In this document: in pieces, positions 4,526 to 51,220 of the stretch
How the letters are laid out: each line of letters begins with the position of its first letter
Position numbering within the stretch: the stretch's first letter is position 1
Virus record (IMG/VR): IMGVR_UViG_3300045996_001806
Span: 1-60,429 of that record
Source: a virus
Lineage: Duplodnaviria; Caudoviricetes
Length of the DNA: 60,429 nucleotides
Reading direction: 5' to 3' (one strand)
The notes under the pieces: model-generated
What the model saw: only the letters and a program-made list of their open reading frames with translations
What the model was told of the DNA's origin: nothing
Databases searched by the model: none
Made by a program: the position numbers and the translations under genes

Positions 4526-4641
4526 TGGATCTCTCCAACCCCATGATCTTCCTCTCGGCGTGCTGCGCCGGGATTCCGCTGCTCGTCGGCTGGGTCAAGC
4601 TCAAGATCTGGGACCTGCGCCGCGAGCGCGGCCTGCCGTGA
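4525..4641 (+). CDS. Small membrane protein
   Basis: Hydrophobic helix, coupled at both ends. Confidence 0.55.
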   Translation: MDLSNPMIFLSACCAGIPLLVGWVKLKIWDLRRERGLP

Positions 4642-5201
4642 TCCCGACGATCACCTGGCACCTGCCGCGCCCGCCGAAGTCGCGCTATCGCGGCGGCTTC
4701 CCGCTCCACTTCGAGGACAACCTGATCCAGCTACTCGGCTACCCCGAGCAGATCCTCCAGCCCTTCGGCGGGCGCGCCGAGCACGGGATTCGCGTCGACC
4801 TCGACCCGCTGACCGAACCCGATGTCGTGGCCGACGCGCACGAGCTCCCCTTCGCCGACGAGTCCTTCGACTGCGTGATCCTCGACCCGCCCTACTCCGA
4901 CGAGGAGGCGCTCGAGTTGTACGGGATCACCCGGCGCCTCGAGCCGGCGAAGTTCGTCGCCGAGGCCGTGCGCGTGCTTCGCCCCGGCGGCGATCTCGTC
5001 ATCTACACAGACCGCGAGCCTCGCCGCCCACCGCGCTGCAATCATCGCTGCCGGATCATGGTCACGCTTCGCCCCGGGCACTCACCGCGGGTGTGCATGG
5101 TCTTCCAGAAGCGAAAGCCCGGGATGCCGTTCTACGGGTCCGAGGCTGGCGAGGAGTTGCCGGACGCCGAGCCTTCTGTCATCCTCGGGGCCGCGCCGTA
5201 G
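4638..5201 (+). CDS. Amino (N6A/N4C) methyltransferase-like protein
   Basis: PFGG SAM-binding-like motif, DPPY catalytic motif, RVLRPGG. Confidence 0.75.
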   Translation: MIPTITWHLPRPPKSRYRGGFPLHFEDNLIQLLGYPEQILQPFGGRAEHGIRVDLDPLTEPDVVADAHELPFADESFDCVILDPPYSDEEALELYGITRRLEPAKFVAEAVRVLRPGGDLVIYTDREPRRPPRCNHRCRIMVTLRPGHSPRVCMVFQKRKPGMPFYGSEAGEELPDAEPSVILGAAP

Positions 5202-5265
5202 AGCAGTCCGGTAGCTCGCCTGGTTCATTGCCAGGAGGTCGCGGGTTCGAATCCCGCCGGCGCTA
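5192..5265 (+). tRNA. tRNA-fMet-like (anticodon CAT) with atypical anticodon arm; CCA not encoded
   Basis: Cloverleaf: CGCGCCG/CGGCGCT acceptor with C1:U72 mismatch, GAGC/GCTC D stem (A11:U24), CCTGG-TTCATTG-CCAGG, GCGGG-TTCGAAT-CCCGC. Confidence 0.9.
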
Positions 5266-5266
5266 T

Positions 5267-5365
5267 GTGATCCGCCGAATCTACATCCACATCATGCGGC
5301 ACCGTGGCAGGCATGTCCTGGCCGAGGACTGCTGGTGCAAGCCGCGCGTCGAGCGAGTGCCTTGA
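5267..5365 (+). CDS. Small His/Cys peptide (32 aa)
   Basis: VIRRIYIHIMRHRGRHVLAEDCWCKPRVERVP. Confidence 0.45.
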   Translation: MIRRIYIHIMRHRGRHVLAEDCWCKPRVERVP

Positions 5366-5390
5366 CATCGCGCTCGAGATGCCCTAGAGT
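5362..5390 (+). promoter_or_regulatory. Sigma70/SigA-type promoter
   Basis: TTGACA-N17-TAGAGT; flanks resemble the 1401 promoter. Confidence 0.8.
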
Positions 5391-5392
5391 CC

Positions 5393-5487
5393 CCGACCTG
5401 CTCGAGTAGGTTGATGCGACGCCCTTCGGGGCCTAGCGGACGAAAGAGCAGCCGGCAGGGCCTCCTTCGGGAGGCTCTCGTCGTTTG
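5393..5487 (+). ncRNA. Candidate small structured RNA
   Basis: Own promoter, CTGCTC/GAGCAG helix, GCCC-UUCG-GGGC hairpin, terminal UUCG hairpin followed by a U-rich tail. Confidence 0.5.
5458..5487 (+). terminator. Intrinsic terminator
   Basis: GGGCCTCC-TTCG-GGAGGCTC followed by TCGTCGTTT. Confidence 0.65.
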
Positions 5488-5522
5488 TGGGGCGCCGATT
5501 CGCACGCTACGCTCGCGCCCAC

Positions 5523-6137
5523 ATGGCCAAGTGGGACTTTCCCTCGGAGGAGCAGCAGGAGCGCTTCCTCGCCGAGATCGCCGACGGGAAGACCCGCCAG
5601 GAGGCCGCGGAGATCGTCGGCTCGAGCTCGACCAAGTTCCGCACGCTGATGAACTCGCAGAAGCCCGAGGGCCTCGCGTTCGCCGCGCGCTACCTGGAGG
5701 TGCTCGAGGAGGTCGGCAAGTCTCCGAGCCCGCTCGCCGGGCGCATCCGCGAGATGGAGGGCGTGCAACTTGCCCACCGCGCGCTCGACGAGTTCATCAT
5801 GCGCGCCCTGGACGCCGAGCGCGGCAAGGCCTCGCCCTCGGGCAACCGGATGCTCTACCAACTCTCCCTGCTCAAGGTCGAGGACTTCAAGCCGCTGCTC
5901 GAGGCCCGGACCCGGCACATCCACGAGGGTGCGGTCGGGATCTACCAGATGCCGCAGATCGACACGGCCAAGTGGTCGCTCGAGCAGCACCGCGAGTTCG
6001 TCGCGCTGCGCAAGCGTCTCTCGGAGCTCGTCGCGCTCGCTCAGCCCGACAGCGCCCAGCCGCCGCGCGAGTTGCCGGTCGGCGCTGACGACATCGAGGG
6101 CGAGGCCGTCGAGATCGAGGACGCGGCGGTCGCCTAG
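5523..6137 (+). CDS. terS: Terminase small subunit (putative)
   Basis: N-terminal HTH (QERFLAEIADGKTRQEAAEIVG), directly upstream of and coupled to terL. Confidence 0.7.
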   Translation: MAKWDFPSEEQQERFLAEIADGKTRQEAAEIVGSSSTKFRTLMNSQKPEGLAFAARYLEVLEEVGKSPSPLAGRIREMEGVQLAHRALDEFIMRALDAERGKASPSGNRMLYQLSLLKVEDFKPLLEARTRHIHEGAVGIYQMPQIDTAKWSLEQHREFVALRKRLSELVALAQPDSAQPPRELPVGADDIEGEAVEIEDAAVA

Positions 6138-7765
6138 TGCTCATCGACGCGCATGACGACGCCATCGAGGCGGACCTCGAGCGGCGCGAGCAGGGCCTGT
6201 CGCTGATCGACGAGGGCGCCGAGCTCTCGAAGAGCCTCTTTCCCTTCGTCCGCGCCTCCTGGCACGTGCTTCGCCCAGACGACGCCTTCGTCAACAACTG
6301 GCACCTGGGCGCGATGTCTGAGGTGCTCGAGGCCATCACTGACGGCGAGCTCGATCGGGTGTTCATCTGGGTGCCTCCCGGCTCGATGAAGACGATCGAG
6401 GTCGACGTCTGCTGGCCTGCCTGGGAGTGGACGAAGCGACCGAGCCTGCGCTACCTGACCTGCTCCTACGACCAGGAGATCCAGATCGAGCAGGGCATGA
6501 TCCCGTCGCGCGATCTCATCCTCTCGGACTGGTACCAGCAGCGCTGGCCGCACGTGGTCCTGAAAGAGACCCGCCGTGCCGCGTACACGAACACCCGCGG
6601 AGGCGCGCGCTGGGCCGCGGCGCCGAACGCGAAGAAGGTCACGGGCCGACACGTGCACCGGATCATCCTCGACGACCCCAACGATGCGAACTCCGCCGAG
6701 GGCGACTCCGACGCCGAGATGCAGCGGATCAACGACTGGCACGACTCGACGCTCGGCACCCGTCTACTCAAGGGCGGCGCGAAGGTCGTCATCCAGCAGC
6801 GCCTACACGAGAACGATCTCTCCGGCCACCTGCTCGAAAAGGACGAGGGCCGCTGGTACAAGCTCTGCCTCCCCGAGCGCTACGACCCCAAGCACCAGTT
6901 CGTGTGGCCCGAGGATCCCCGCACCGAGGAGGGCGAGCTTCTGTGGCCGACGCTCTTCGACTCTCAGCGCCACGAAGAGCGCGTCTCGATCATGGGTGCG
7001 CGTCGCGCGTCGGGGCAGCTTCAGCAGGAGCCCTCTCCGCGTGTCGGCGAGATCCTCAAGCGCACGGGCTGGCGCTACTACCTGCCCGAGCACCTCGAGC
7101 TGATCGAAGAGGGCGCCTTCGACGATCTGCCCGCCGAATCGCCCTTCCGCCGCCTGCGCATGATCCTGATCTCCTGGGACACCTCGCTGAAGGAGCTCAA
7201 CTCTTCCGACGACGCGGCCGGCGGGATCTGGGGAATCCTCGAAGGCGATCGCTTCCTGCTCAAGACCCGGGTCGACAAGATGAACAAGTCGTCCACGAAG
7301 ACCGCGATGCTCGAGCAGCGCGAGTGGGCGCTCGCTCGCTTCCCGCACGCAGCGCACCGCCTGCTCATCGAGAAGAAGTCGAACGGGGTCGAGATCATCG
7401 CCGACTTCCGGCGCACTGTCCCTGGTCTAGCGGTATACAACCCCGGCGACCTGGACAAGATCGCGCGCGCCAAGAACGCCGAGGGCGACTTCGATTCGGG
7501 CAACGTCTGGATCTGCGGCGCGCCCAACGGAGACGGCACCGACTACGACCCCGCGCGCACTCCAGCCTGGGCTCAGAAGGTGATCGAGCAGTGCGCGAAG
7601 TTCCCCAAGGGCCGTGAGGACGATCTCGTCGACATGACGACGCAGGCGATCAACTGGGTGCGCTTCAAGGGCCAGCGCAGGGCCACCATGCACTCGCCCG
7701 AGGAGGTCCTGCTGCCGGCGCTGGCGGGTATCCCCTCCGGAGCCGGTTCTATAGTGCGCGCGTGA
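6137..7765 (+). CDS. terL: Terminase large subunit
   Basis: PPGSMKT Walker A, IILDDP Walker B, QQRLHEND, QQEP, SWDT, FPKGREDDLVD nuclease motif. Confidence 0.95.
   Translation: MLIDAHDDAIEADLERREQGLSLIDEGAELSKSLFPFVRASWHVLRPDDAFVNNWHLGAMSEVLEAITDGELDRVFIWVPPGSMKTIEVDVCWPAWEWTKRPSLRYLTCSYDQEIQIEQGMIPSRDLILSDWYQQRWPHVVLKETRRAAYTNTRGGARWAAAPNAKKVTGRHVHRIILDDPNDANSAEGDSDAEMQRINDWHDSTLGTRLLKGGAKVVIQQRLHENDLSGHLLEKDEGRWYKLCLPERYDPKHQFVWPEDPRTEEGELLWPTLFDSQRHEERVSIMGARRASGQLQQEPSPRVGEILKRTGWRYYLPEHLELIEEGAFDDLPAESPFRRLRMILISWDTSLKELNSSDDAAGGIWGILEGDRFLLKTRVDKMNKSSTKTAMLEQREWALARFPHAAHRLLIEKKSNGVEIIADFRRTVPGLAVYNPGDLDKIARAKNAEGDFDSGNVWICGAPNGDGTDYDPARTPAWAQKVIEQCAKFPKGREDDLVDMTTQAINWVRFKGQRRATMHSPEEVLLPALAGIPSGAGSIVRA
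7750..7755 (+). promoter_or_regulatory. -10 element of a probable leaderless promoter
   Basis: TATAGT 6 nt before GTG 7762. Confidence 0.5.
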
Positions 7766-8094
7766 GTGTGGCCAACGCGGGAGTTGTCTTCATCTGCGAT
7801 GACGGTGAGGATGGCTGCGGCGCCAGCTTCGTAGCAAAGCGGCGCTACGCGGACTACATCCGCCGGGGTGTCCATAGACAGCTCTGCCGCCGCTGCGCTC
7901 GAGATGCCCTTCGCACCAAGCCGAAAGAGCCGCCGACAGAGGCCGACCTGATCTTCTGGCTCGAGCGCTTCGACGACGAGGACATCGCGCTCTTCGTCAT
8001 CGCGTTCTTCTCCGACGCCGAGTTCGACCCAGAGCCGATCGCGCTTCGCCGCGCCGAGCTCATGGGCGCGAACGTTCTCGCCGCGACAGGATGA
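7762..8094 (+). CDS. Zn-finger hypothetical protein
   Basis: CDDGEDGC...LCRRC. Confidence 0.65.
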   Translation: MSVANAGVVFICDDGEDGCGASFVAKRRYADYIRRGVHRQLCRRCARDALRTKPKEPPTEADLIFWLERFDDEDIALFVIAFFSDAEFDPEPIALRRAELMGANVLAATG

Positions 8095-8786
8095 TCGCCG
8101 TCGTCATCCCGGTGCTCGGGCGCCCCGAGGCTGTTCTTCGTGTCGCCGATTCGCTCGAGCACATGACCCACGGCGCCTATCGCCTGTTCTTCCTGTGCTC
8201 GCCTGGCGACGATGCCGCGATCGAGGCTGTGGAGCGAACCGGCGCGGACTACCGCGTCGTCATGTGGCATCCGGACAAGGCCGACTTCGCGATGAAGACG
8301 AACCTCGGCTTCCGTCTCACCAACGAACCCTACGTCTTCCTTGGAGCGACGGACCTACGCTTCCACGTGAGTTGGGATCTGCACGTGCTCCTGGTCGCGC
8401 AGGAGACCGGCGCCGGCGTTATCGGCACCGACGACATGGGCAACCCGCTCGTTCGCCGTGGCAAGCATGCCACCCACGCGCTCGTTCGCCGCACGTACAT
8501 CGAAGAGTGCGGGGGCACCTTCGACGAGGAGCCGGGAGTCGTGTACGCCGAGTGCTACGACCACCAGTGCGTCGACAACGAGCTCGTCTTCGTCGCGCAG
8601 GAGCGCGGCCAGTGGGCGTTCGCGGCCAACTCGAAGGTCGAGCACCTGCACCCGCTCTGGCGCAAGGGCACGATGGATCCGGTCTACCAGAAGGCACTCG
8701 CTCGAGGTCAGGCCGACATCCGGATCTTCGCGTCGCGGCGAGCCGACTGGACAGCGAGGCGAGGGCGTACTAAAGTCGGCGCCTGA
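8091..8786 (+). CDS. Glycosyltransferase (GT-A/GT2-like)
   Basis: IAVVIPVLGRP N-terminal strand, FLGATD, DNEL, VEHLHP. Confidence 0.85.
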   Translation: MIAVVIPVLGRPEAVLRVADSLEHMTHGAYRLFFLCSPGDDAAIEAVERTGADYRVVMWHPDKADFAMKTNLGFRLTNEPYVFLGATDLRFHVSWDLHVLLVAQETGAGVIGTDDMGNPLVRRGKHATHALVRRTYIEECGGTFDEEPGVVYAECYDHQCVDNELVFVAQERGQWAFAANSKVEHLHPLWRKGTMDPVYQKALARGQADIRIFASRRADWTARRGRTKVGA

Positions 8787-8888
8787 CGATGGCGCGACCT
8801 TCTCACGACGATGCCTTTCGGCCCGGCCGCTGACCTGCGCCATCGTCGTCGTATGTTGGCGGCCGGACCGAAGGGCGAGAGGTAGACC

Positions 8889-9134
8889 ATGAAGCGGATT
8901 CACCACCAGGAGACGCCCTTCGGCCCGATCATGGTGGAGACGGTCGCGTGCGATCGCTGCGAGGCCGAGAAGGTGGCCGACGGTGCTCTCATGGGCTGGA
9001 TCCAGCTCGAGCCGATGGGCCTGCTGCGAACCCAGGCGATGCCGAGCGTTCTGCATTTCTGCTCCGACACCTGTGCTAGGGACTGGCTCAGCGAGGTGGG
9101 CTTGCGCCGCTTCGGACCCGGGCAGGTGCAGTGA
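8889..9134 (+). CDS. Zn-finger hypothetical protein
   Basis: CDRC...HFCSDTC. Confidence 0.7.
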   Translation: MKRIHHQETPFGPIMVETVACDRCEAEKVADGALMGWIQLEPMGLLRTQAMPSVLHFCSDTCARDWLSEVGLRRFGPGQVQ

Positions 9135-9694
9135 ACGGCTCTCTTCTCCTCGCTCCCCACAACGACGACGAGACGCTCTTCGCCTCCTACCTATGCCTCA
9201 TGCACAAGCCGCACGTCGTGGTCTGCCTGCGCTCGATGCGGATGGCCGACCCGAACTATCCCGGCGGGATGCCGATCGCCTACGAGATCCGCGAGCGCGA
9301 GACCCAGTGCGCGATGGAGGTGCTCGGCTGCACCTGGGAGCAGTGGATGATCTACGACAACTACCCGCTGAGCTGGGAGCGCGCGCTCGAGGAGCACATG
9401 CAGAACATCCGCCCCGTTCCCGAGCATGTCTTCGCGCCGGCGCCCGAGCTCGGCGGCCACGAGCAGCACAACACGGTCGGCGAGATGGCGCGGCGGATCT
9501 TCGGCGCGGGAAACGTCACCCACTACCTGACGTACACGGCCAAGGGTCGATCGACGAACGACACCCCGATCGAGTGTCCGGTCGGCTGGCTCGACATCAA
9601 GCGAACGGCGATGGCGTGCTACGCCTCGCAGGCAGCTCATCCGGCGACGCGCACGTGGTTCGAGCAGGACGATCTTCGCGAGTTCGCACTGTGA
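9131..9694 (+). CDS. PIG-L/LmbE-family N-deacetylase
   Basis: APHNDDETL, GHEQH, K..AMACYASQ motifs. Confidence 0.85.
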   Translation: MNGSLLLAPHNDDETLFASYLCLMHKPHVVVCLRSMRMADPNYPGGMPIAYEIRERETQCAMEVLGCTWEQWMIYDNYPLSWERALEEHMQNIRPVPEHVFAPAPELGGHEQHNTVGEMARRIFGAGNVTHYLTYTAKGRSTNDTPIECPVGWLDIKRTAMACYASQAAHPATRTWFEQDDLREFAL

Positions 9695-10257
9695 GTGTTC
9701 TCGGCCCAGACGGAACGCGCTGGCCGCCCGGGACCCTGCGTGCGCTCGAGCACGAGTCGATCCGCGGCTTCGTCTACCAGGCTGCTTGCGATGAGTACCT
9801 CTCTGGCCGAGTGCTCGACTGGGGCTGCGGCAAGAAGCCCTATCGCGAGATGATCGAGAAGGCAGGCGGCCACTACGAAGGCTACGACCTGGCCGAGTTT
9901 CCGGCCAACGTGTCGGGCGAGGACGTCGGCAGCGAGCTCTTCTGGGACGCGAACGCCTGGGACGCGATCCTCTGCACGCAGGTTGTCCAGTACGTGCCGT
10001 TCCCGGAGTTGATCGAGTTGCTCGCTGACTTCCGCGACCGTCTCTTCGACGATGGTCATCTCGTGATGACCTACCCGACGAACTGGCCCGAGGTCGAAGG
10101 CGCGGATCTCCATCGCTTCACGAAGGCGGGCATGGAGCGGATGCTCACTGAAGCCAGGTTCGAGATCCTCGAGCACGAGTGCCGCGGCATCGGTGCCGTC
10201 TCACTCTCCGGCGACGAGTTCGCCGTCGGCTACGGGGTGATCGCGCGCCGTGGCTAA
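9691..10257 (+). CDS. Class I SAM-dependent methyltransferase
   Basis: VLDWGCGKKPY, DAILCTQV, DLHRFT. Confidence 0.85.
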   Translation: MSVLGPDGTRWPPGTLRALEHESIRGFVYQAACDEYLSGRVLDWGCGKKPYREMIEKAGGHYEGYDLAEFPANVSGEDVGSELFWDANAWDAILCTQVVQYVPFPELIELLADFRDRLFDDGHLVMTYPTNWPEVEGADLHRFTKAGMERMLTEARFEILEHECRGIGAVSLSGDEFAVGYGVIARRG

Positions 10258-10465
10258 GCCGCGAAACGAGATCACGAACGTCCCGCCACAGTGCCCGCGC
10301 TGTGGGAACAAGAGCTTCAAGCCCGGGACGCTTTACCGCTCGTTCAAGACGTTCCGCTCCGAGAAGCTCATCCTCGAGTGCACCGAGTGCGAGCTCAAGT
10401 TCGACGGCTCTGGCTGGTGGGACGAGGCGGGCGCGGAGTGGACGATGGCGGAGTCAGGCACGTGA
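10250..10465 (+). CDS. Zn-ribbon protein
   Basis: CPRCG...CTEC. Confidence 0.7.
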   Translation: MAKPRNEITNVPPQCPRCGNKSFKPGTLYRSFKTFRSEKLILECTECELKFDGSGWWDEAGAEWTMAESGT

Positions 10466-11169
10466 AGAACGCCGTCATCGTCGTTCCCTACCGCGGCTCG
10501 AGCGCCTGGCGCGAGGCTGGCGAGACGCGCCGGCGCAACTGGGAGTACGCGCGCGCCTGGTGGTCGGAGCTCGGGCTGCCGATCTTCATCGGCGACTCGC
10601 CGGCGAACGCGCGCTTCGACGTCACGAAGGCGCGCAACGCCGCGCTCGCCTTGGCGACTCAGATGAACCCTGACTGGGACGTCGCGCTGATGACGGACGC
10701 CGATGCCGTGCTCGGTTCGCTGAACCAGGCCAAGGCCGCGCTCGGTGTCGCGTTCGCGACGCGCGGCTACGTCGCTGCGCACAGCGAGCTTCGCTACCTG
10801 AGTCCTCGGGGCGCTGCGTATGCCGAGCGCGGCTATGCGATCACGGAGGCCGCCGTCGAGATGACGATCGCCGAGACCTGGGAGACGGTTTTTGCCTTTC
10901 CGCGGGATCTGTGGGAGGAGATCGGCGGCTTTGACCCGCGCTTCAGCGGCTTCGGGCATCAGGTCGAGGCGTTCTTCCACGCTGCAACGACGCTGCGCGG
11001 CAACGACCGCATCACGGGTCCCTGCTACCACTTCTGGCATCCCTACAGCGCGGACTCGCCGCACCCTGCGCTCAAGGCGAACCGCGCGCTCGTCGAGCGC
11101 TATTGGGAAGCCGCCGACAACGAGGCCGCGATGCGCGAGCTGGTCTCCGAGTACGTGGTGGCCGTATGA
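10462..11169 (+). CDS. Glycosyltransferase (GT-A, GT2/GT7-like)
   Basis: IVVPYR, ARN, DAD, IGGFDPRFSGFG, YHFWH. Confidence 0.9.
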   Translation: MKNAVIVVPYRGSSAWREAGETRRRNWEYARAWWSELGLPIFIGDSPANARFDVTKARNAALALATQMNPDWDVALMTDADAVLGSLNQAKAALGVAFATRGYVAAHSELRYLSPRGAAYAERGYAITEAAVEMTIAETWETVFAFPRDLWEEIGGFDPRFSGFGHQVEAFFHAATTLRGNDRITGPCYHFWHPYSADSPHPALKANRALVERYWEAADNEAAMRELVSEYVVAV

Positions 11170-11411
11170 AGCGCCTCCTTCGCAGCGCATGGCTTCGATC
11201 GCGGCCGCTTCTGTATGGGCCGCCAAACTGGCTCGTGGACAAGTTCGACTCCGAGGATCGGCGCATGTTCGGCTTCTGGACGATCATCCTGGCCGCAGTT
11301 GGAGCCGTGTTCTTCGGGCGTGAAGTGCTGTATGTGACCATCCTCAGCATCATCGCGTTGATCCCCAACTACGCGAGCGAGACGCCTGTGGAGACCGAGG
11401 ACGAGGAATGA
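11166..11411 (+). CDS. Small two-TM membrane protein
   Basis: Two hydrophobic segments. Confidence 0.65.
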   Translation: MKRLLRSAWLRSRPLLYGPPNWLVDKFDSEDRRMFGFWTIILAAVGAVFFGREVLYVTILSIIALIPNYASETPVETEDEE

Positions 11412-11686
11412 CACTCTCGCTCGAGCAGGAGCTCGAAGGGCTGATCGAGAGCACGGACTACCAAGTGGTCGTGGCGCACGTGAGCGACAACTATCTGCGC
11501 CTGCGGATTTTGTACCTACCTCATCTCGTCGTGCGCGGCGAAGGTGCGTTCTCCTACGTCGCCACCGGACTCATCGGCGACAAGTCGTTCATGGGCCGCC
11601 GACGGTGGAAGAAGGCGCGCAAGTGGGTCAAGGAGCAGATCGCCGAGCATCGAGAACTGCTGGCGATGGGAGTCAAGGTCTGGTGA
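11408..11686 (+). CDS. Hypothetical protein
   Basis: ATGA and GTGA overlaps. Confidence 0.65.
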   Translation: MTLSLEQELEGLIESTDYQVVVAHVSDNYLRLRILYLPHLVVRGEGAFSYVATGLIGDKSFMGRRRWKKARKWVKEQIAEHRELLAMGVKVW

Positions 11687-12234
11687 CGGTGGTCATCGAC
11701 ATCGGCTGCGCGCGCTACGGCGGCGACTACTCGATCGAGAGACTCCTGGAGGAGTTCAAGCCGGTGACGATGCTGTACGGCTTCGACCCCAACGGAGAGA
11801 TCGTCGCGTCGGCCCCAGAAGGCGCATCGCGTATCAGCCCTACCCGGTGGCAGATGCCCGATGGGGCCGGCGTGGCGCTCGAGCAGAAGGCGGCCTGGAC
11901 CTACGACGGCGAGATCGGCTACCTGTCGGACGGTCTGAACTCGTGCCTGACCGAGCGCAACGACGTCACGCAGGTGGAGTGCTTCGACCTCGCGCGCTTC
12001 ATCGTCGAGCGCTCGCAGCGTGCCGATCAGGCGGGCGGTCTCGACATCGTGCTCAAGATGGACGCTGAGGGATCTGAGTACGACCTGCTCGACCACCTGA
12101 TCGCGGCGGGCGGCGACGCGCTGCTCAAGCTCGCCTGGGTCGAGTGGCACCCGAAGCGGATCGTGAACGCCGCGCAGCGGCGGAAGAACATCGAGGATCG
12201 GATCGCGTGCGAACTCGCGGAGTGGCGCTGGTGA
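11683..12234 (+). CDS. FkbM-family methyltransferase
   Basis: VIDIGC, YGFDP, KAAW, LKMDAEGSEY, VEWH. Confidence 0.85.
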   Translation: MTVVIDIGCARYGGDYSIERLLEEFKPVTMLYGFDPNGEIVASAPEGASRISPTRWQMPDGAGVALEQKAAWTYDGEIGYLSDGLNSCLTERNDVTQVECFDLARFIVERSQRADQAGGLDIVLKMDAEGSEYDLLDHLIAAGGDALLKLAWVEWHPKRIVNAAQRRKNIEDRIACELAEWRW

Positions 12235-12824
12235 GAGTCTCTGCGGTCATCGTCACCCGCGGCGACGTCAACCTCGACCGGATCATCGAGGGGCCGTGGC
12301 CGGAGCCGTTCACCGAGATCGTCGTCTGGGACAACTCCGTCGAGACGGACATGAAGGTCTACGGGCGCTACGCCGCAATCAAGAAGGCGAGCCATCCGGT
12401 GATCTACGTCCAGGACGACGACTGCATCCTCCCGCTCCAGTCGCTGCAGACGCTCGTCGATGCCTACGAGCCGGGGCGCCTGGTCGCGAACATGCCTCGC
12501 TCGCGCTGGGAGGGCTACCCGGATTCGTCGCTCCTCGGCTGGGGTGCCATCTTCGACGCGCACCTTCCGCGCGAGTCCTTCGGGAAGCTCCCGCATCTCT
12601 TCGTCAGGGAGGACGATCGCGAGTGGTTCCACCTCACCTGTGACGTCGCCTTCTCGGCGCTGAGTCGGCGAACGGTCATCGACGTGCCGTTCGTGCACCT
12701 GCCCTGGGCTGAAGGGCCTGACCGCATGTTCACGGGCCGCCCGACACACTCCGAAGAGCGCGAGCGGATGCTCGAGCTGTGCCGGTCCGTCCGCGGCGAA
12801 GACGATGACAGGAGGGACTGGTGA
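12231..12824 (+). CDS. Glycosyltransferase (GT-A fold)
   Basis: VSAVIVT, IVVWDNS, GRY, IYVQDDD. Confidence 0.8.
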   Translation: MRVSAVIVTRGDVNLDRIIEGPWPEPFTEIVVWDNSVETDMKVYGRYAAIKKASHPVIYVQDDDCILPLQSLQTLVDAYEPGRLVANMPRSRWEGYPDSSLLGWGAIFDAHLPRESFGKLPHLFVREDDREWFHLTCDVAFSALSRRTVIDVPFVHLPWAEGPDRMFTGRPTHSEERERMLELCRSVRGEDDDRRDW

Positions 12825-15077: not shown

Positions 15078-16889
15078 GTGCCGCTCTTCGGTAGGGGTAG
15101 ACGTGCCTCTAGCCGCTCTCCTGCCGACGTAGAGATCGAGGTCCTGCAGGCGGCCGCGGCTGAGGTGCGGCTGAAGGACGGGCGGGACTACCGGCGCTCG
15201 CTGCCCGCGTGGCAGCGGCAGGCGCTCGAGTTCTACGACCTGCTCGGCGAGTCGTGGTACCCGGCGCAGTTCTACGCCAGGATGCTCTCGAGGGTTCGCC
15301 TGCATCCGGCGATCGAGCTCCCCAACGGCGAGTACGAGGAGATCGAGGACGAGCAGGCCCAGACCATCCTGAAGCGCATCCAGTACCGCCGCTGGGGCGG
15401 CACTTTCGGGCAACTCCAGGCGCTCGTTGGCGACGGCTATCTCGCCGTCTACCTGGACGACGATCAGAGCGAGCGCTGGGACTACTTCTCGCCCGCCGAG
15501 CTCACCGTGCAGGAGACGACGTACCTGCGGCGCATGGGCGACGGCGTGCCGGATCGCGAATACACGAAGGTCGGCTCGATCGGCGAGAACGGTCCCGGGG
15601 AGGGCGAGATGAAGGCCTGGCGCCTGTGGAACCGTCATCCGACGCACTCGGAGATGGCGGACGCGCCGATGAAGGCAGTCCTCGATCGCCTGTCCTACCT
15701 GATGCACCTGGACAAGGCCGCGCTCGCGGCGGCGCTCTCGAGGATCGCGGGCGCGGGCCTGTTCGTGGTCGACGAGCGGATCACGATCCCGCCGAGCGAG
15801 GCAGAGGCCGCCGACGATGATCTGCACGACGACCCCTTCATGCGGCGGCTCCTGAACTACATGGTGAAGCCGATCTCCACCCCGGGCTCCGCTGCGCAGC
15901 AGGCCCCGCTGGTCGCGCGCGTCGAGCCTCCCGAGGGCATGTCCGTGAAGGACATGACGGACTGGATTCGCTTCCACGACCCCAACCAGACGACCGACTG
16001 GGACTCGAAGGTCGAGAAGACGATCCAGCGCATCGCCATGTCGCTCGACATGCCGCCGGCCGAGCTGCTCGGACTCGAGAACGCGAACCAGTGGGTCGGC
16101 TGGCTGATCGGCGAGGACAAGTGGAAGGCCCACGGCGAGCCGGTCATCATCCGGCTCTGCGACGACGTGACGCGCGGCTACTACCGACCTGCGTGTATCG
16201 CCGCCAAGGTAGAGCGAGCGGAGGAGCTCGTCGTCTGGTTCGACCCCGCGCAGGTCGTCGTTCATCCCGACCACGGCAAGGCGGCCGAAGAGGTACACGA
16301 TCGTGGCGCCCTATCGGACAAGGCCCTGCGCGCGGCCCACAACTTCTCCGAGAGCGCGGCGCCGTCGGCGGTAGAGCGAGAGGCCTGGGAGATCATCAAG
16401 ATGAAGCAGCGGGATCGCCCGCAGGATCCCTCCGAGGCTGACGCCCGAGGAAGCGGCTCGCACGTCGAGCCGGGCGCGCCCGAGAACAACGGCAATCGCA
16501 CGAACCAGCCTTCGCCGCAGGGCGACAATCAGCAGCTTCGGATTCTCGGCGCCGCCGAGATCACCTTCGACAAGCTCCGCGAGCGCGCCGGCACGTTCCT
16601 GTGGACGAAGCGGATGCAGTGCGAGGGCTGCTTCACCGGCATGGAGACGGTGCCGCGCGGCGAGCTCGCAGCGACGGCCGGCAAGAACATCGTGAGGATG
16701 CTCGACATTCATTCCGAGCTCGCGCTGATCGCCGGTGGCGCCGACCACTTCGCCGTGAAACTGCACAAGCAGTACGGCTACGACGAGGAACGCGCGCAAG
16801 TCATCGCGAAGGTCCTCGAGCGGCTGGCTGCGGAGTCGCTGTACGAGTCAGAGGCCTCGCTGCCAGAGGACTTCGTGGAGGTGCTCTAG
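15078..16889 (+). CDS. Portal protein
   Basis: WQRQALEFYD..GE, LSRVRL, ADAP, SRIAGAG, LDMPPAELLG..ANQW; size and position. Confidence 0.85.
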   Translation: MPLFGRGRRASSRSPADVEIEVLQAAAAEVRLKDGRDYRRSLPAWQRQALEFYDLLGESWYPAQFYARMLSRVRLHPAIELPNGEYEEIEDEQAQTILKRIQYRRWGGTFGQLQALVGDGYLAVYLDDDQSERWDYFSPAELTVQETTYLRRMGDGVPDREYTKVGSIGENGPGEGEMKAWRLWNRHPTHSEMADAPMKAVLDRLSYLMHLDKAALAAALSRIAGAGLFVVDERITIPPSEAEAADDDLHDDPFMRRLLNYMVKPISTPGSAAQQAPLVARVEPPEGMSVKDMTDWIRFHDPNQTTDWDSKVEKTIQRIAMSLDMPPAELLGLENANQWVGWLIGEDKWKAHGEPVIIRLCDDVTRGYYRPACIAAKVERAEELVVWFDPAQVVVHPDHGKAAEEVHDRGALSDKALRAAHNFSESAAPSAVEREAWEIIKMKQRDRPQDPSEADARGSGSHVEPGAPENNGNRTNQPSPQGDNQQLRILGAAEITFDKLRERAGTFLWTKRMQCEGCFTGMETVPRGELAATAGKNIVRMLDIHSELALIAGGADHFAVKLHKQYGYDEERAQVIAKVLERLAAESLYESEASLPEDFVEVL

Positions 16890-18931
16890 TGCCCTGGTCT
16901 GTCGGAAAGCGCGGGAGCAAGTGGTGCGTCGTCAAGGACGACGATGGCAAGGTCGAGGGTTGTCACGATTCGAGCGCCGCTGCGATCAAGCAGCAGAGGG
17001 CGCTCTACGCGAGTGAGTCGATGGCCGCCAACGGGGATGGCCCCGATACGGCCGAGCTCGCGATGGTCGCGCTCTACCCGCGTCTGGAGGAGGCCGAAGC
17101 ACTCGCCGTCGAGGGCGGTCTCGAGGTCGACGATCTGCACGTGACGCTCATCTTCCTCGGCGAGGTGGGAACCTTCGATGAGGAGGCGCTGCCCGAGGCC
17201 GTCGGCCGAGTAGCCATGTCACACAGCCCGCTCGAGGGAGTGGTTGGCGGCACCGGCTACTTCAGCGCGAACGAGGACGGCGTGCCCGTGATCCTGCTCC
17301 CCGACGTTCCCGGTCTGAGCCGCGTGCGCGAAGACATCGTGGGCGAGTTGCGCGCGCAGGGCATCGAGTCACCCTCCGAGCACGGATTCCTTCCACACAT
17401 GACCCAGATCTACGTCGATTCCGTCGACGACGCTCCGCCTCGAGAGAACCCTCTCGGCCAGGCACTCCACTTCGATGCGGTCTCCGTCGTCATCGGCGAC
17501 CGTCGCCAGGACTACCCTCTCGGAGGTGAAGAGATGAGCACCAACACCGTCACCGTCAAGATCATCCCGGACTTCAGCGAGTGGGATGCCGCGCTCGCGC
17601 AGCGAATCGACATCCTGCCGGGGACGGCTGCGAACGCGGCCGCGGGCGCCATGTGGGAGCTCGCTGCAGGCGCCGTCGCCGCCGTCGAGGCAGGGCAGCA
17701 GTGGGAGGGCATCCTCGCCTTCGAGGCCTACCCCTCCGACGGTGATGGCGGTCTCAAGCGCTACCTGATGACGCCTCTCGGGCATCGCGAGCTGCCGCTG
17801 TCTCTCATGGCGCAGTTCGTGAACGAGGAGGGCCACAAGAAGGCGGGGATCGCCGGCCGCATCGACACGATCGAGCGCATCCCCGCCTCGGAGTTCGCCC
17901 ACGAGGGCTTCGATCTTCCAGACGACCTGCCCGAGGACGCTTTCGTGCACTTCGGGACTGGCGTCTTCGACACGGGAGAGGTTGGCGCCGAGGCTGCGCG
18001 GCTCGTCGAGGCGAAGATGCTGCGAGGCGTCTCCGTCGATCTTTCCGGGACGAAGTGGGTCCCGCTCGATGCCGAGACCTTCCAGGAGATCGAGCAGAAC
18101 GAGATGGGCATGGAGCGGATGCTGCGCGGCGTGCTCGCTGGCGGGAAGAACTCGAAGATCGCCGGCGCCACGATCGTCGCGCATCCCTCGTTCGGCCATG
18201 CGCGCGTCGATCTCGTCGCCTGCGCGTTCGCATCGGCGGAGATCCGCCTGGTGCACGAGGAGGATCTCGTCGCCTGCGCCGCTGGCCCGATCGCGCCGCC
18301 CGCGGAGTGGTTCGCGAACCCGCAGTTCAAGCAGCAGACGCCGGTCACGGTCACGGGCGACGGGCGGGTCTCCGGCCACATCGCGACCTGGGACTGCCAC
18401 ATGGGCTACGAGAACATGTGCATGACGGCCAAGCCGTCCCGCGACGGCTACGCGCGCTTCCACACGGGGACGCTCATCACCGACGACGGCACTCCGGTGA
18501 AGATCGGCCGCATCTCGGTTGCGCCGCACGCGCCGAAGCGCATGTCGCCCGAGCAGGTCATGGCGTACTACTCGGACGCGAAGAAGGTCGCCGCGTTCGT
18601 CTGCCTGTACGAGGACCGCTTCGGGATCGCGTGCGCTGGCGTGACGCGCTCGGATGCGCCGCGCGAGCTCCTGCGCGACTTCCTCGCCAATCCGCCGTCG
18701 GGCGAGTGGCGCCGCGGGGAGTTGCTCGGGATCTCGTCGGTGCCTCTGCCGGGTCTCCCGGTGGTCGCTCCCGAGGCGTACTTCGTGGCGTCCGCCGACG
18801 GCGGTGATGTCACGCCCGAGATGCTGATCCTGCCGCCAGTCGAAGCGCCGGAGCCGACGGAGGACGAGATGGTCCTCGCGGCGGCGGCTGCCGGGGGCGC
18901 GGAGACGCTCCTCGGAGTCATCGCCGGCTGA
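16889..18931 (+). CDS. Prohead maturation protease with N-terminal 2H phosphoesterase domain
   Basis: HVT (17138) and HMT (17396) motifs; protease region H..A.IAGRI, RGVSVD, GATIV..PSF; internal SD GGAGGTG + ATG 17534. Confidence 0.8.
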   Translation: MPWSVGKRGSKWCVVKDDDGKVEGCHDSSAAAIKQQRALYASESMAANGDGPDTAELAMVALYPRLEEAEALAVEGGLEVDDLHVTLIFLGEVGTFDEEALPEAVGRVAMSHSPLEGVVGGTGYFSANEDGVPVILLPDVPGLSRVREDIVGELRAQGIESPSEHGFLPHMTQIYVDSVDDAPPRENPLGQALHFDAVSVVIGDRRQDYPLGGEEMSTNTVTVKIIPDFSEWDAALAQRIDILPGTAANAAAGAMWELAAGAVAAVEAGQQWEGILAFEAYPSDGDGGLKRYLMTPLGHRELPLSLMAQFVNEEGHKKAGIAGRIDTIERIPASEFAHEGFDLPDDLPEDAFVHFGTGVFDTGEVGAEAARLVEAKMLRGVSVDLSGTKWVPLDAETFQEIEQNEMGMERMLRGVLAGGKNSKIAGATIVAHPSFGHARVDLVACAFASAEIRLVHEEDLVACAAGPIAPPAEWFANPQFKQQTPVTVTGDGRVSGHIATWDCHMGYENMCMTAKPSRDGYARFHTGTLITDDGTPVKIGRISVAPHAPKRMSPEQVMAYYSDAKKVAAFVCLYEDRFGIACAGVTRSDAPRELLRDFLANPPSGEWRRGELLGISSVPLPGLPVVAPEAYFVASADGGDVTPEMLILPPVEAPEPTEDEMVLAAAAAGGAETLLGVIAG

Positions 18932-50699: not shown

Positions 50700-51220
50700 T
50701 GTACGCGGGCATCGACTACGACACGAACACGGTGCACGTCGTGCTGCTACCCGAGGAGGAGCCGCCGCGCTACCTGCCCTTCGTGATGCATGGCCATGAT
50801 TCTTTCGAGCGCGCGCGCGCGGTGCGAGAAGTGATGCCTCCGCGCGGCTGGTGGGACGATGAGGGTGTGATCGCGATCGGTATCGAGGACCCGATGCAGA
50901 AAGGACCCGCGAGTCGCACCTTCCTGCCGAAGCTCAAGATGATCCAGGGTGCCATCCTGGCCTGCCTGCCGCCCGGCACCCTGGTTCAACCCTTCGTAGC
51001 GACGTCGTGGCGGAAGGAGGTCGGCCTCTCTGGGCGCGCGACGAAGGAGGACATCGCCGACTTCGTGTACGACGCTCAGAACCAGGGCGATGCGCGCGAG
51101 GGCGACGTTCTCGAGCTTGACACGCGCGCCTTCTGGGACGCGCAGTGGCCGCAGGACGCCTGCGATGCGTACTGCCTCGCGCTCTGCGTCGAGAAGCTGA
51201 CCGAGCCGATGGCAGCCTGA
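50699..51220 (+). CDS. RuvC-like Holliday junction resolvase
   Basis: YAGID, IE.P, WRK.VG..G.ATK, QD.CDA. Confidence 0.75.
   Translation: MYAGIDYDTNTVHVVLLPEEEPPRYLPFVMHGHDSFERARAVREVMPPRGWWDDEGVIAIGIEDPMQKGPASRTFLPKLKMIQGAILACLPPGTLVQPFVATSWRKEVGLSGRATKEDIADFVYDAQNQGDAREGDVLELDTRAFWDAQWPQDACDAYCLALCVEKLTEPMAA

What the first reader, a model, noticed from the sequence alone, without database searches (positions are those of the whole stretch)
5192..5265. Initiator-type tRNA with a rewired anticodon arm
It keeps the initiator marks C1:U72, A11:U24 and CAU. Its loop is UU-CAU-UG, with U37 where a purine is nearly universal, and U29:A41 replaces one of the three G:C pairs used for IF3 and P-site selection. 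VapC-type toxins cleave tRNA-fMet at this arm and depend on those pairs, so this may be a nuclease-resistant replacement. It may also initiate with altered fidelity. The gene overlaps the stop codon of the DPPY methyltransferase, which could conceivably act on RNA.
Basis: partly seen in the sequence, partly recalled or inferred. Interest (0 to 1): 0.7.

Follow-up and report, generated by a model that had tools for sequence, protein, structure and literature searches.

The report
Phage initiator tRNA with U37 loop
An uncultured soil phage carries an intact start-of-translation (initiator) tRNA whose anticodon loop breaks the near-universal purine-37 rule, and the same oddity turns out to recur, conserved, in many other viruses but almost never in cells.

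Summary
Window 5192-5265 (+) is a real tRNA-Met(CAU) (ARAGORN; Rfam 56.6 bits), and the only tRNA on a 60-kb virus record. That record looks like a siphovirus, and its portal and capsid match only actinobacteriophages.

All initiator and formylation marks are present: C1·U72, A73, G2:C71, C3:G70, G4:C69 and A11:U24. All 20 stem pairs are intact. The deviations are U29:A41 and the loop UUCAUUG (U32, U37, G38).

- **U29:A41 is ordinary for viruses.** The 29:41 pair is G:C in only 39 of 117 virus-borne initiator-like tRNAs sampled.
- **U37 is rare in cells.** There were 62 tRNA hits in 185,579 species genomes, many of them on phage DNA.
- **U37 recurs in viruses.** There were at least 114 loci (113 unique sequences when pooled with the genome hits), with strong stem covariation. 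It is invariant in 85 of 85 syntenic copies in one Bacteroidales Mu-like phage family.

So this looks like a selected variant rather than decay. This tRNA's own lineage has no relatives, so that inference is indirect.

The mechanism is open. The leading idea is escape from nucleases that cut tRNA-fMet. The bolder idea is nt37:mRNA(-1) pairing; it has suggestive support in the Bacteroidales family and none in this phage.

The parts
5192..5265 (+). Initiator-type tRNA-Met(CAU) gene, 74 nt, no encoded CCA
   Evidence: ARAGORN; Rfam RF00005 56.6 bits; cloverleaf MFE; identical in contigs of three further studies
5219..5235 (+). Anticodon arm. Stem CCUGG/CCAGG with U29:A41 (5221/5233). Loop UUCAUUG with U32 (5224), anticodon CAU (5226-5228), U37 (5229) and G38 (5230).
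   Evidence: Read from the sequence. This exact 17-mer occurs once elsewhere in IMG/VR, inside a coding region and not in a tRNA.
4560..5201 (+). DPPY-motif methyltransferase ORF. Its stop codon TAG (5199-5201) is U8-A9-G10 of the tRNA. The start codon is uncertain.
   Evidence: Translation; PHROG DNA methyltransferase families, E 4e-13; Pfam Methyltransf_11; only sub-threshold NCBIfam hits
5362..5390 (+). Sigma-70-like promoter match (TTGACA-17-TAGAGT) downstream of the tRNA
   Evidence: Consensus scan: 1 found against 0.1 expected. This is a consensus match only.
5457..5478 (+). Terminator-like G+C hairpin with a T-rich tail, just before the next gene
   Evidence: Consensus scan. This is a consensus match only.
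5487..6137 (+). ORF of unknown family in the small-terminase position
   Evidence: No PHROG, Pfam or NCBIfam hit. The role is assigned by position only (inference).
6137..7765 (+). Terminase large subunit
   Evidence: phrog_38, E 2e-58
16889..18931 (+). MuF-like head protein with an N-terminal 2H phosphoesterase domain (HVTL at residue 84, HMTQ at 170). This is context: a possible RNA-end or cyclic-nucleotide enzyme.
   Evidence: Pfam PF13563, 27.7 bits against a cut-off of 27; TIGR02258, E 1.3e-6, below its cut-off; motifs; weak PDB hits 1iuh and 5h7e, E 0.007; PHROG portal/MuF-like C-terminal part

Best explanation
This is a working initiator tRNA encoded by an uncultured soil siphovirus, probably of an actinobacterium.

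**Inferred life cycle.**
- It is transcribed at the end of the leftward small-gene/methyltransferase block and cut out by host RNase P and 3' processing.
- It is given CCA by the host.
- It is charged by host MetRS through CAU and A73.
- It is formylated through the unpaired C1·U72, G2:C71, C3:G70, G4:C69 and A11:U24.
- It is then used in the P site.

**The odd loop.** The non-canonical anticodon arm (U32, U37, G38 and U29:A41) is a selected state, not decay. It belongs to a virus-enriched class of initiator tRNAs with altered loop positions 32, 37 and 38.

**Most likely purpose.** It gives the phage a spare initiator that a host tRNA-fMet-directed anticodon-loop nuclease (VapC-like, cutting 38|39) or another loop-reading host factor does not recognise. 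Initiation then continues when the host attacks its own initiator tRNA.

**Shown:** gene, fold, identity elements, phage context, and class-level recurrence and conservation. **Inferred:** expression, charging, formylation, and above all the nuclease-escape purpose.
For: **The gene and its context.**
- Real tRNA with every formylation and initiator determinant. Sequence. Determinants as listed in PMC9976931 (passages).
- It sits on a virus record with terminase, portal, capsid, tape-measure and RecT genes.
- Portal and capsid matched 865 and 787 phage records; the host genera named in the tallies are actinobacterial.
- It is the only tRNA on the record.
- All 20 stem pairs are intact, and U29:A41 is a compensated pair.

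**Loop variation is a viral trait.**
- CUCAUAA in 89 of 117 virus-borne initiator-like tRNAs.
- CUCAUAA in 148 of 150 listed matches in cells.

**U37 specifically.**
- 62 tRNA-like hits in 185,579 species genomes.
- In 12 of 20 of those genomes examined, a canonical copy also matched elsewhere.

**The U37 class is under selection (113 unique U37 tRNAs).**
- 1:72 is unpaired in 101, A73 is present in 104 and A11 in 112.
- Stems are 97.9-99.4% paired. There are 422 double-change cells against 112.5±16.9 in shuffles, and 0 of 500 shuffles reach that.
- In a family defined by TerL, not by the tRNA, U37 is kept in 85 of 85 copies and C38 in 84 of 85, while 40 of 77 alignment columns vary.

**A37U is viable.** An E. 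coli tRNA-fMet A37U mutant is tolerated and functional (bioRxiv 10.1101/2022.05.02.490318, passages).

**The nuclease framework.**
- The published hypothesis is that phage tRNAs carry loop changes to evade anticodon nucleases (PMC10264068, passages).
- Enteric VapC cuts tRNA-fMet between A38 and C39 (PMC4105405, passage), beside the changed U37 and G38.

**Circumstantial.** The phage carries a 2H phosphoesterase domain, a fold that includes RNA 2',3'-cyclic phosphodiesterases.
Against: - **No relatives of this lineage.** An acceptor-specific, loop-agnostic pattern found 0 hits in viral and 0 in metagenome contigs. TerL relatives reach at most 49% identity, and 0 of 29 loci carry a tRNA. Selection on this particular loop is therefore inferred only by analogy with other viruses.
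- **No population variation to read.** Three further studies hold an identical sequence.
- **Host unknown.** No nuclease is known, and no cleavage or expression data exist.
- **Published counter-trend.** The eLife paper says that phages of Shigella generally avoid encoding tRNA-fMet, so nuclease-escape initiators are not an established case.
- **Possible cost of G38.** U32·G38 may close the loop to 5 nt and could impair function. G38 is rare even within the U37 class: 4 U32·G38 rows of 114.
- **Alternative cause.** Loop variability in phages could reflect relaxed constraint on an auxiliary tRNA.
- **Chemistry (recalled, not tested).** VapC is a PIN nuclease. Whether a 2H enzyme is relevant to its products is doubtful.
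Confidence: 0.4

Rival explanations
1. **Start-context retuning (a private initiation channel).** Nucleotide 37 of the initiator pairs with mRNA position -1. A U37 initiator would therefore favour mRNAs with A (or G by wobble) before the start codon. The phage's own genes would be initiated preferentially over host genes that are tuned to A37 and U(-1).
For: **Experimental precedent.** In E. coli, complementarity between mRNA -1 and tRNA-fMet nt 37 raises translation for A37, A37G and A37U, with a small gain for G-U wobble (bioRxiv 10.1101/2022.05.02.490318, passages).

**Class-level pattern found here.**
- In 15 genomes, genes within 10 kb of a U37 tRNA have A(-1) in 114 of 271 starts, against 43 of 200 in far regions of the same contig. 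U(-1) is 81 of 271 against 101 of 200.
- A is up in 12 of 15 genomes and U is down in 13 of 15. Starts whose -1 base lies in a stop triplet were dropped.
- In G003 (record titled Xylanibacter caecicola), prophage genes have A(-1) in 24 of 38 starts against 40 of 97 in host genes.

**Within one Mu-like phage family.**
- 85 loci with the U37 tRNA: A .381 and U .302 at -1 (633 unique contexts).
- 62 related loci without it: A .257 and U .462 (483 contexts). Fisher p is 1e-5 for A and 5e-8 for U.

**G37 phages.** They keep pyrimidine at -1: U 84 and C 44 of 199.
Against: **No support in this window's phage.**
- The -1 base is G 34, C 20, A 7, U 4 of 65 starts.
- With one start caller, high-GC U37, G37 and A37 records do not differ (G versus C p 0.78-1.0).

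**Weaknesses of the class-level signal.**
- The family contrast is probably one clade split, that is, one evolutionary event.
- G+C differs between the two groups (.546 against .466).
- Five contigs were fetched twice (four with the tRNA, one without).
- Starts were called crudely, as the first ATG of ORFs of 90 aa or more.
- A first cross-locus signal (G(-2), p 1e-5) collapsed to p about 0.05 once one repeated homologous gene was removed.
- Loci with the CUCAUUA loop gave mixed shifts.
Confidence: 0.2
2. **Functional but neutral variant.** The phage simply supplies extra initiator tRNA. Because the host's own copies carry the essential load, loop positions 32, 37 and 38 and pair 29:41 are free to drift. 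The odd loop would then have no purpose of its own.
For: - A37U and A37G are tolerated in E. coli.
- First-pair variants sustain growth and occur naturally (PMC5389676, passages).
- Many different loop variants occur on viral contigs: 28 of 117 are non-canonical, of about 15 kinds.
- An earlier scan note reports a U37 that 'drifts freely' in another phage tRNA family (e1-5997453; unchecked).
Against: - Drift should also erode stems and tertiary positions, yet these are intact here and class-wide.
- U37 is fixed in 85 of 85 and C38 in 84 of 85 copies in a family whose tRNA varies at 40 of 77 columns. That pattern is purifying selection, not drift.
Confidence: 0.2
3. **Pseudo-tRNA or non-translational tRNA-like element.** Candidates are a decaying captured host gene, an attachment-site remnant, or merely an RNase P/Z processing signal between operons.
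For: - U37 and a possible U32-G38 closure are unfavourable for a canonical loop.
- The gene lies at an operon boundary, with promoter-like and terminator-like sites downstream.
- The lineage is a singleton.
- Initiator-derived tRNA-like RNAs that no longer decode were noted elsewhere in the scan (e1-2979084; unchecked).
Against: - All 20 stem pairs, the tertiary nucleotides and every formylation and MetRS determinant are retained.
- It is a full-length gene in the middle of phage DNA, with no integrase found nearby.
- The same kind of tRNA is conserved in other viruses.
Confidence: 0.08

Closest known systems
Bacterial initiator tRNA-fMet (E. coli metZWV/metY type)
   Same: - CAU anticodon.
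- Unpaired 1:72, A73, G2:C71, C3:G70, G4:C69 and A11:U24.
- G30:C40 and G31:C39.
- Identical D arm and variable-loop sequence pattern (GGUAGCUCG ... AGGUC).
   Different: - U29:A41 instead of G29:C41.
- Loop UUCAUUG instead of the near-invariant CUCAUAA.
- C1·U72 rather than C1·A72.
- Encoded by a virus as a solitary tRNA.

In the E. coli crystal structure A37 makes a base triple with G29-C41, and C32·A38 extends the stem (PMC2528185, passages). Here all four of those residues are changed. U32·G38 can form a wobble pair of the same pyrimidine-32/purine-38 type (inference).
Phage tRNAs with anticodon-loop substitutions proposed to escape anticodon nucleases (van den Berg et al. 2023, PMC10264068; also retron evasion by phage tRNAs, PMC11555353, listing and abstract only)
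   Same: It is phage-encoded, its body is conserved, and its changes are confined to the anticodon loop next to a known cleavage site of the cognate cellular tRNA.
   Different: That work concerns elongator tRNAs of tRNA-rich phages. For tRNA-fMet it reports avoidance rather than resistant copies. Here the host, the nuclease and resistance are all unknown.
Natural 'unconventional' initiators with a weakened first G:C pair (alpha-proteobacteria, some mycoplasmas; PMC5389676, citing Samhita 2012)
   Same: Only pairs 30:40 and 31:39 are G:C, and the first pair is a Watson-Crick A/U pair.
   Different: Those keep purine:pyrimidine (A29:U41). This one is U29:A41. U:A occurs in 17 of 117 virus-borne initiator-like tRNAs. 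Those also keep the CUCAUAA loop.
Engineered E. coli tRNA-fMet A37U (Hollerer & Jeschek, bioRxiv 10.1101/2022.05.02.490318)
   Same: U at position 37 of an initiator. It was shown to be tolerated and to shift the preferred mRNA -1 base to the complementary one.
   Different: It is a laboratory point mutant with the rest of the loop canonical. This tRNA is natural and also carries U32 and G38.
U37 initiator tRNAs of Bacteroidales Mu-like phages and other viral contigs
   Same: Initiator body plus U37. Usually the only tRNA nearby (97 of 113 loci). It sits next to the terminase genes, both in that family and in this window.
   Different: - The loop there is UUCAUUC or CUCAUUC (C38), and the hosts have lower G+C.
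- There is no detectable kinship of the phages: TerL of this window finds nothing in 5 such records.
- G38 is rare: the UUCAUUG loop occurs in 3 of 113 unique sequences.

Membership tests
tRNA (Rfam RF00005) | Cloverleaf with conserved D-loop and T-loop nucleotides, scoring above the curated threshold | tested here: met
   56.6 bits against 29; ARAGORN; cloverleaf MFE
Bacterial initiator tRNA-fMet | Anticodon CAU and discriminator A73 (MetRS identity) | tested here: met
   C34 A35 U36 at 5226-5228 and A73 at 5265. Identity rules from PMC9976931.
Bacterial initiator tRNA-fMet | Unpaired 1:72, with G2:C71, C3:G70 and G4:C69 (formyltransferase identity) | tested here: met
   C1·U72, G2:C71, C3:G70 and G4:C69 read from the sequence. 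Rules from PMC9976931.
Bacterial initiator tRNA-fMet | Purine-11:pyrimidine-24 pair (A11:U24) | tested here: met
   D stem GAGC/GCUC
Bacterial initiator tRNA-fMet | Three consecutive G:C pairs, 29-31:39-41 | tested here: not met
   U29:A41, G30:C40 and G31:C39. Two of three are G:C. The first pair is also not purine:pyrimidine.
Bacterial initiator tRNA-fMet | Anticodon loop CUCAUAA with unmodified A37 | tested here: not met
   The loop is UUCAUUG. In cells the loop reads CUCAUAA in 148 of 150 listed matches.
Bacterial initiator tRNA-fMet | Aminoacylated with Met, formylated, and used in the ribosomal P site | not testable with these tools
   No listed run holding the stretch is on record as RNA. 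Biochemistry is needed.
Phage tRNAs that evade host anticodon nucleases | Encoded by a phage | tested here: met
   Virus record with phage structural genes
Phage tRNAs that evade host anticodon nucleases | Loop differs from the host's cognate tRNA at or near the nuclease's site | tested here: inconclusive
   It differs from the cellular consensus at positions 32, 37 and 38, beside the enteric VapC cut at 38|39. The host and its tRNA are unknown.
Phage tRNAs that evade host anticodon nucleases | The host has a nuclease aimed at that tRNA, and the phage tRNA resists it | not testable with these tools
Virus-borne U37 initiator tRNA class (delimited here) | Initiator body (unpaired 1:72, A11, G2:C71, C3:G70, A73) with U at position 37, on viral DNA | tested here: met
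   The window tRNA aligns in A1 with 113 unique members.
tRNA-Ile2 (CAU read as lysidine) | Paired 1:72 and an elongator-type body | tested here: not met
   C1·U72 mismatch and A11:U24. The TilS determinants are recalled only and were not tested.

The most novel reading that the evidence does not exclude
Position 37 of phage-encoded initiator tRNAs may be a tuning knob for a private initiation channel.

- By carrying U37, and here also G38, the phage initiator would pair with a purine at mRNA -1 (and C/U at -2).
- It would then favour the phage's own start sites over host messages adapted to A37 and U(-1).
- The same change would also remove the A37-A38 motif that host tRNA-fMet nucleases see.
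- This tRNA would be a high-G+C, actinophage example of a virus-wide strategy.

The best trace of that strategy found here is the U-to-A shift at -1 in Bacteroidales Mu-like phages that carry a conserved U37 initiator.
Probability: 0.2. Interest if true: 0.85.

Novelty: new variant of a known kind. Interest (0 to 1): 0.6.

Why it matters
**The rule being broken.** Initiator tRNA is among the most conserved RNAs, and its anticodon loop is essentially invariant in cells. A recurrent, conserved, virus-specific departure (U37, often with C38, here with G38) says that phages do something to translation initiation that cells do not.

**If it is nuclease escape.** This would extend the phage-tRNA counter-defence idea to the one tRNA whose loss stops all translation. 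It would also predict undiscovered tRNA-fMet-directed defences in soil actinobacteria and gut Bacteroidales.

**If it is -1:37 pairing.** This would be a natural orthogonal initiator. It would show that the 'quadruplet' start-codon interaction seen in E. coli libraries is exploited in nature. It would also give synthetic biology ready-made parts.

**Testability.** Either reading can be tested directly with a short tRNA gene, reporter libraries and cleavage assays. One carrier is a prophage in an isolate genome (G003, the record of L256).

Tried and rejected
**Relatives of this tRNA.**
- The exact anticodon-arm 17-mer in IMG/VR gave one chance hit inside a coding region.
- A loop-agnostic pattern fixing this acceptor stem gave 0 hits in viral and 0 in metagenome contigs.
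- TerL relatives: 11 viral loci (at most 42% identity) and 18 metagenome loci (at most 49%), none with a tRNA.
- There is no near DNA match among 50,697 phage records.
- TerL of this window found nothing in five other U37-bearing viral records.

**Expression.** No RNA holder is listed among 13 runs.

**Population variation.** There is none to read. The T>C at 5224 comes from other organisms' tRNAs, with 9-10 differences per 65 nt.

**Start-context idea in this phage.**
- The -1 base is G 34, C 20, A 7, U 4 of 65 starts.
- A first-ATG tally hinted at G>C for U37 and C>G for G37 high-G+C records. This vanished with one consistent start caller.

**Cross-locus test.** G(-2) with C38 (p 1e-5) was driven by one homologous gene with TATGAATGGCA. 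Without stop-like triplets p is about 0.05.

**Control prophages in the same genomes.** PF03237 found only 2 in 16 genomes, so this control was abandoned.

**Cultured phages.**
- Eight initiator-like tRNAs were checked. Six have CUCAUAA, PaMx74 has UUCAUAC and CN1A has CUCAUAU. None has U37.
- No cultured phage is close to the UUCAUUC class: 8 hits, all in the 80-90% identity band.

**Readings rejected.**
- tRNA-Ile2 reading, because of the 1:72 mismatch and A11:U24.
- Attachment-site remnant, because the gene is full length, mid-contig, and has no integrase found nearby.
- Methyltransferase acting on the tRNA, because it hits DNA-methyltransferase families only.

**Literature and earlier notes.**
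- Winther & Gerdes 2011 (PMC3088637) is not held. The cut site is cited second-hand.
- The eLife supplements that list loop mutations were not opened.
- Earlier scan notes on this genome: none.
Full report
**What is there**

The window is a single IMG/VR virus record: 60,429 bases, linear, CheckV completeness 78%. It has about 66% G+C.

- **Gene content.** It encodes a large terminase, portal, MuF-like protein, major capsid, major tail protein, tape measure, RecT-like protein, AAA proteins, an endolysin-like protein, a block of glycosyltransferases and two DNA methyltransferases.
- **Likely host.** It has no near relative among 50,697 phage records. Its portal and capsid proteins match 865 and 787 records. 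The organism and host names in the tallies are Mycobacterium, Gordonia, Microbacterium, Arthrobacter, Streptomyces and other actinobacterial genera, all in the under-60% identity band. TerL is odd in matching proteobacterial phages best, at 34%. An actinobacterial host is therefore likely, but not shown.
- **Occurrence.** The same DNA occurs in soil or terrestrial metagenome runs of 7 studies.

**The tRNA**

ARAGORN finds exactly one tRNA in the window, tRNA-Met(cat) at 5192-5265 +. Rfam's tRNA model gives 56.6 bits against a threshold of 29.

The sequence reads: CGCGCCG UA GAGC AGUCCGGUA GCUC G CCUGG UUCAUUG CCAGG AGGUC GCGGG UUCGAAU CCCGC CGGCGCU A.

Every element that a review lists for formylation identity is present (PMC9976931, passages):
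- an unpaired 1:72 pair, here C1·U72;
- A73, G2:C71, C3:G70 and G4:C69;
- the purine-11:pyrimidine-24 pair, here A11:U24.

The CAU anticodon, which is the MetRS determinant, is also present. All 20 stem pairs are Watson-Crick and the usual tertiary nucleotides are in place. No CCA is encoded.

The gene begins 10 bases before the end of a DPPY-motif methyltransferase ORF, whose TAG stop is U8-A9-G10. A promoter-like and a terminator-like site lie between the tRNA and the next gene.

Independent assemblies from three further studies reproduce the tRNA and its flanks without a single difference. The odd bases are therefore not assembly errors.

**What is unusual, and how unusual**

Two things depart from the cellular initiator:
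- pair 29:41 is U:A instead of G:C;
- the loop is UUCAUUG instead of CUCAUAA.

I scanned public collections with a pattern that fixes only the initiator-type D-stem strand, CAU and the variable loop.

- Pair 29:41 was A:U in 61, G:C in 39 and U:A in 17.
- Position 37 was A in 105, G in 8 and U in 4.
- Position 38 was A in 101, C in 11, U in 4 and G in 1.
- The full loop was CUCAUAA in 89 of 117.

*Cellular control.* The same pattern matched in 155 of 401 Bacteroidota genomes. Of the 150 matches listed (30 more were not), 148 read CUCAUAA by eye. One read CUCAUAU and one CUCAUUA; the latter was in the centre genome, which I had chosen because it has U37.

So the weakened first pair is commonplace on viral DNA. 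An A:U first pair is natural in all alpha-proteobacteria (PMC5389676, passages). Loop variation is a viral trait.

**U37 is a recurrent, virus-enriched, selected state**

*Where it occurs.*
- It gave only 64 hits in 185,579 species genomes. Two of those are not tRNAs.
- Most genome hits are on gut Bacteroidales or Clostridia MAG contigs.
- In 12 of 20 such genomes examined, a canonical CUCAUAA copy also matched elsewhere. The U37 gene is therefore an extra copy.

*It is a tRNA, and usually solitary.* ARAGORN calls tRNA-Met(cat) in 113 of the 114 viral loci. In 97 of those 113 it is the only tRNA within 1.5 kb.

*It keeps initiator identity.* Pooling both collections gives 113 unique sequences from 175 loci.
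- 1:72 is unpaired in 101.
- A73 is present in 104, A11 in 112, G2:C71 in 110 and C3:G70 in 103.

*Its stems covary.* The window tRNA was aligned with them (A1).
- The acceptor, anticodon and T stems are 99.4, 98.4 and 97.9% paired.
- There are 422 double-change cells against 112.5±16.9 in shuffles, and 0 of 500 shuffles reach that value.
- The covariation score is 0.454, against at most 0.111 for slid partners.
- Because these loci were picked for U37, that alignment cannot show conservation of U37 itself.

*An unbiased test of U37 conservation.* This came from a prophage in G003, the record of L256, titled Xylanibacter caecicola.
- There the U37 tRNA lies in a Mu-like myovirus prophage, between a head-protease-like gene and the DNA-binding/terminase genes.
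- Searching IMG/VR with that TerL, and with the TerL of a tRNA-less relative, gave 158 distinct loci from two kept sets of 80; two loci were returned by both searches.
- 85 of these loci carry a tRNA-Met(cat). Four of them are contigs fetched twice.
- U37 is present in 85 of 85 and C38 in 84 of 85.
- Meanwhile the 36 unique tRNA sequences vary at 40 of 77 alignment columns and show 16 compensated anticodon-arm variants.
- In the first set (TerL 62-100% identical to the query), the tRNA lies about 700 bases upstream of TerL, on the opposite strand, in 70 of 80 loci.
- This is purifying selection on U37.

I found no paper describing U37 initiators. One search used 'phage-encoded', 'initiator tRNA', 'tRNAfMet', 'bacteriophage' and 'position 37'. 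One search used 'U37', 'initiator tRNA', 'anticodon loop' and 'phage'. Earlier notes of this scan report U37 in phage tRNA-Glu and in tRNA arrays (unchecked by me).

**Limits for this particular tRNA**

- **Singleton lineage.** A pattern fixing its acceptor stem but leaving the arm free found nothing in viral or metagenome contigs.
- **No syntenic relatives.** The nearest TerL relatives (at most 49% identity) carry no tRNA in 0 of 29 loci.
- **G38 is rare.** The loop UUCAUUG occurs in 3 of the 113 unique sequences. One of them (L188) also has U29:A41.
- **Indirect inference.** Selection on this loop is inferred from the intactness of the rest of the molecule, the compensated U29:A41 pair, and the behaviour of the class.

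**Structure-based remark (inference)**

In the E. coli tRNA-fMet crystal structure, C32·A38 forms a wobble-like, probably protonated pair that extends the stem. A37 makes a base triple with G29-C41. In the ribosomal P site the canonical loop is restored (PMC2528185, passages).

In the phage tRNA all four residues differ. U32·G38 can form a wobble of the same pyrimidine-32/purine-38 kind, and the MFE fold draws it. So the extended-stem geometry may be kept while the A37 triple is lost.

**Mechanism**

*Nuclease escape (published frame).*
- Phage tRNAs are proposed to carry loop changes that make them insensitive to host anticodon nucleases (PMC10264068, passages).
- Enteric VapC cuts tRNA-fMet between A38 and C39 (PMC4105405, passage), next to the changed U37 and G38.
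- The contrast between an invariant loop in cells and a variable loop in viruses fits an arms race.
- There is no direct evidence, and the eLife authors saw avoidance of tRNA-fMet in Shigella phages.
- I hold this as the best single explanation at 0.4.

*Start-context pairing (second frame).* This rests on an experiment. In E. coli, A37U and A37G initiators are tolerated, and translation rises when mRNA -1 is complementary to nt 37 (bioRxiv 10.1101/2022.05.02.490318, passages). I tested its prediction as follows.

- **Near versus far in 15 genomes.** Genes within 10 kb of a U37 tRNA have A at -1 in 171 of 337 starts, against 68 of 229 in far regions (13 of 15 genomes positive). After dropping starts whose -1 base belongs to a stop triplet, the figures are A 114 of 271 against 43 of 200, and U 81 of 271 against 101 of 200.
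- **Within the Mu-like family.** U37-bearing phages have A .381 and U .302 at -1 (633 unique contexts). tRNA-less relatives have A .257 and U .462 (483 contexts).
- **G37 phages.** They keep pyrimidines at -1: 128 of 199.
- **Weaknesses.** The family contrast is probably one clade split, the G+C differs (.546 against .466), and the start calls are crude. An earlier cross-locus signal was largely one repeated gene.
- **In this window's phage there is no support.** The -1 base is G 34, C 20, A 7, U 4 of 65 starts. High-G+C U37, G37 and A37 records do not differ under one start caller.

I therefore keep this as the most novel reading, at 0.2.

**Other readings**

- **Neutral drift of an auxiliary tRNA (0.2).** This is contradicted at class level by the fixed U37.
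- **Pseudo-tRNA, attachment remnant or processing signal (0.08).** These fit poorly with a fully intact initiator body in the middle of phage DNA.
- **RNA methylation by the neighbouring enzyme.** The methyltransferase matches DNA-methyltransferase families only.

**Verdict**

It is an intact initiator-type tRNA with a non-canonical arm, and plausibly a nuclease-resistant spare.
- The 'missing G:C pair' is ordinary for viruses, and the RNA-methylation idea has no support.
- The tRNA is a new, G38-bearing, high-G+C member of an apparently undescribed, virus-enriched class of U37 initiator tRNAs. That makes it a new variant of the known kind 'phage tRNAs with altered anticodon loops'.

Noticed in passing
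window 16889-18931 (+): A MuF-like head protein carries an N-terminal 2H phosphoesterase domain. It has two HxT motifs (HVTL at 84, HMTQ at 170). Pfam PF13563 is just over its cut-off, and there are weak PDB hits to 2'-5' RNA ligase / RNA 2',3'-cyclic phosphodiesterase. It could be a virion-delivered RNA-end or cyclic-nucleotide phosphodiesterase.
   Followed up: partly
window 8091-14397 (+): A block of glycosyltransferase-like genes plus a PIG-L-type deacetylase (9131-9694) lies between the terminase and the portal. This may serve virion or host-surface glycosylation.
   Followed up: no
window 54875-55960 (-) and 51145-51990 (+): A C-5 cytosine DNA methylase (Pfam E 5e-54) lies on the minus strand. 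A protein with a homing-endonuclease-associated repeat is also present. The phage therefore has two DNA methyltransferases.
   Followed up: no
window 5266-5486: The 220-base spacer after the tRNA holds a good sigma-70-like promoter match (5362-5390). About 70 bases further on there is a strong hairpin with a T tail (5457-5478), directly before the next gene. This is an odd order, which could mean a short RNA, an attenuator or a packaging site.
   Followed up: no
L463-L465 (G003:C1:350001-405397): The isolate genome behind L256 has a roughly 37-kb Mu-like prophage. It carries transposase and MuB-like genes, a sheath, a tape measure and a reverse transcriptase (phrog_1423, E 3e-115). It also carries a conserved UUCAUUC initiator tRNA beside the terminase genes. 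This is a culturable system for testing U37 initiators.
   Followed up: partly
L070, L098, L112, L124, L128 (IMG/VR): Five of 117 virus-borne initiator-like tRNAs have C33 (loops CCCAUAA or CCCAUAC) instead of the universal U33. From memory, this trait is known in eukaryotic cytoplasmic initiators.
   Followed up: no
far host regions L486-L500: Host genes of these mostly Bacteroidales genomes have U at -1 in 101 of 200 start contexts. That is the base complementary to A37 of their own initiator tRNA.
   Followed up: partly
L618, L619, L620: Three tRNA-fMet-less relatives in the Mu-like phage family instead carry a tRNA-Val whose anticodon loop reads CUGACAA.
   Followed up: no
L303 (G004:C1:2412255-2412285): A Synechococcus chromosome with five canonical initiator copies also has a sixth initiator-like gene. 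Its loop is AUCAUUA and its T arm is imperfect. It may be a decaying copy.
   Followed up: no
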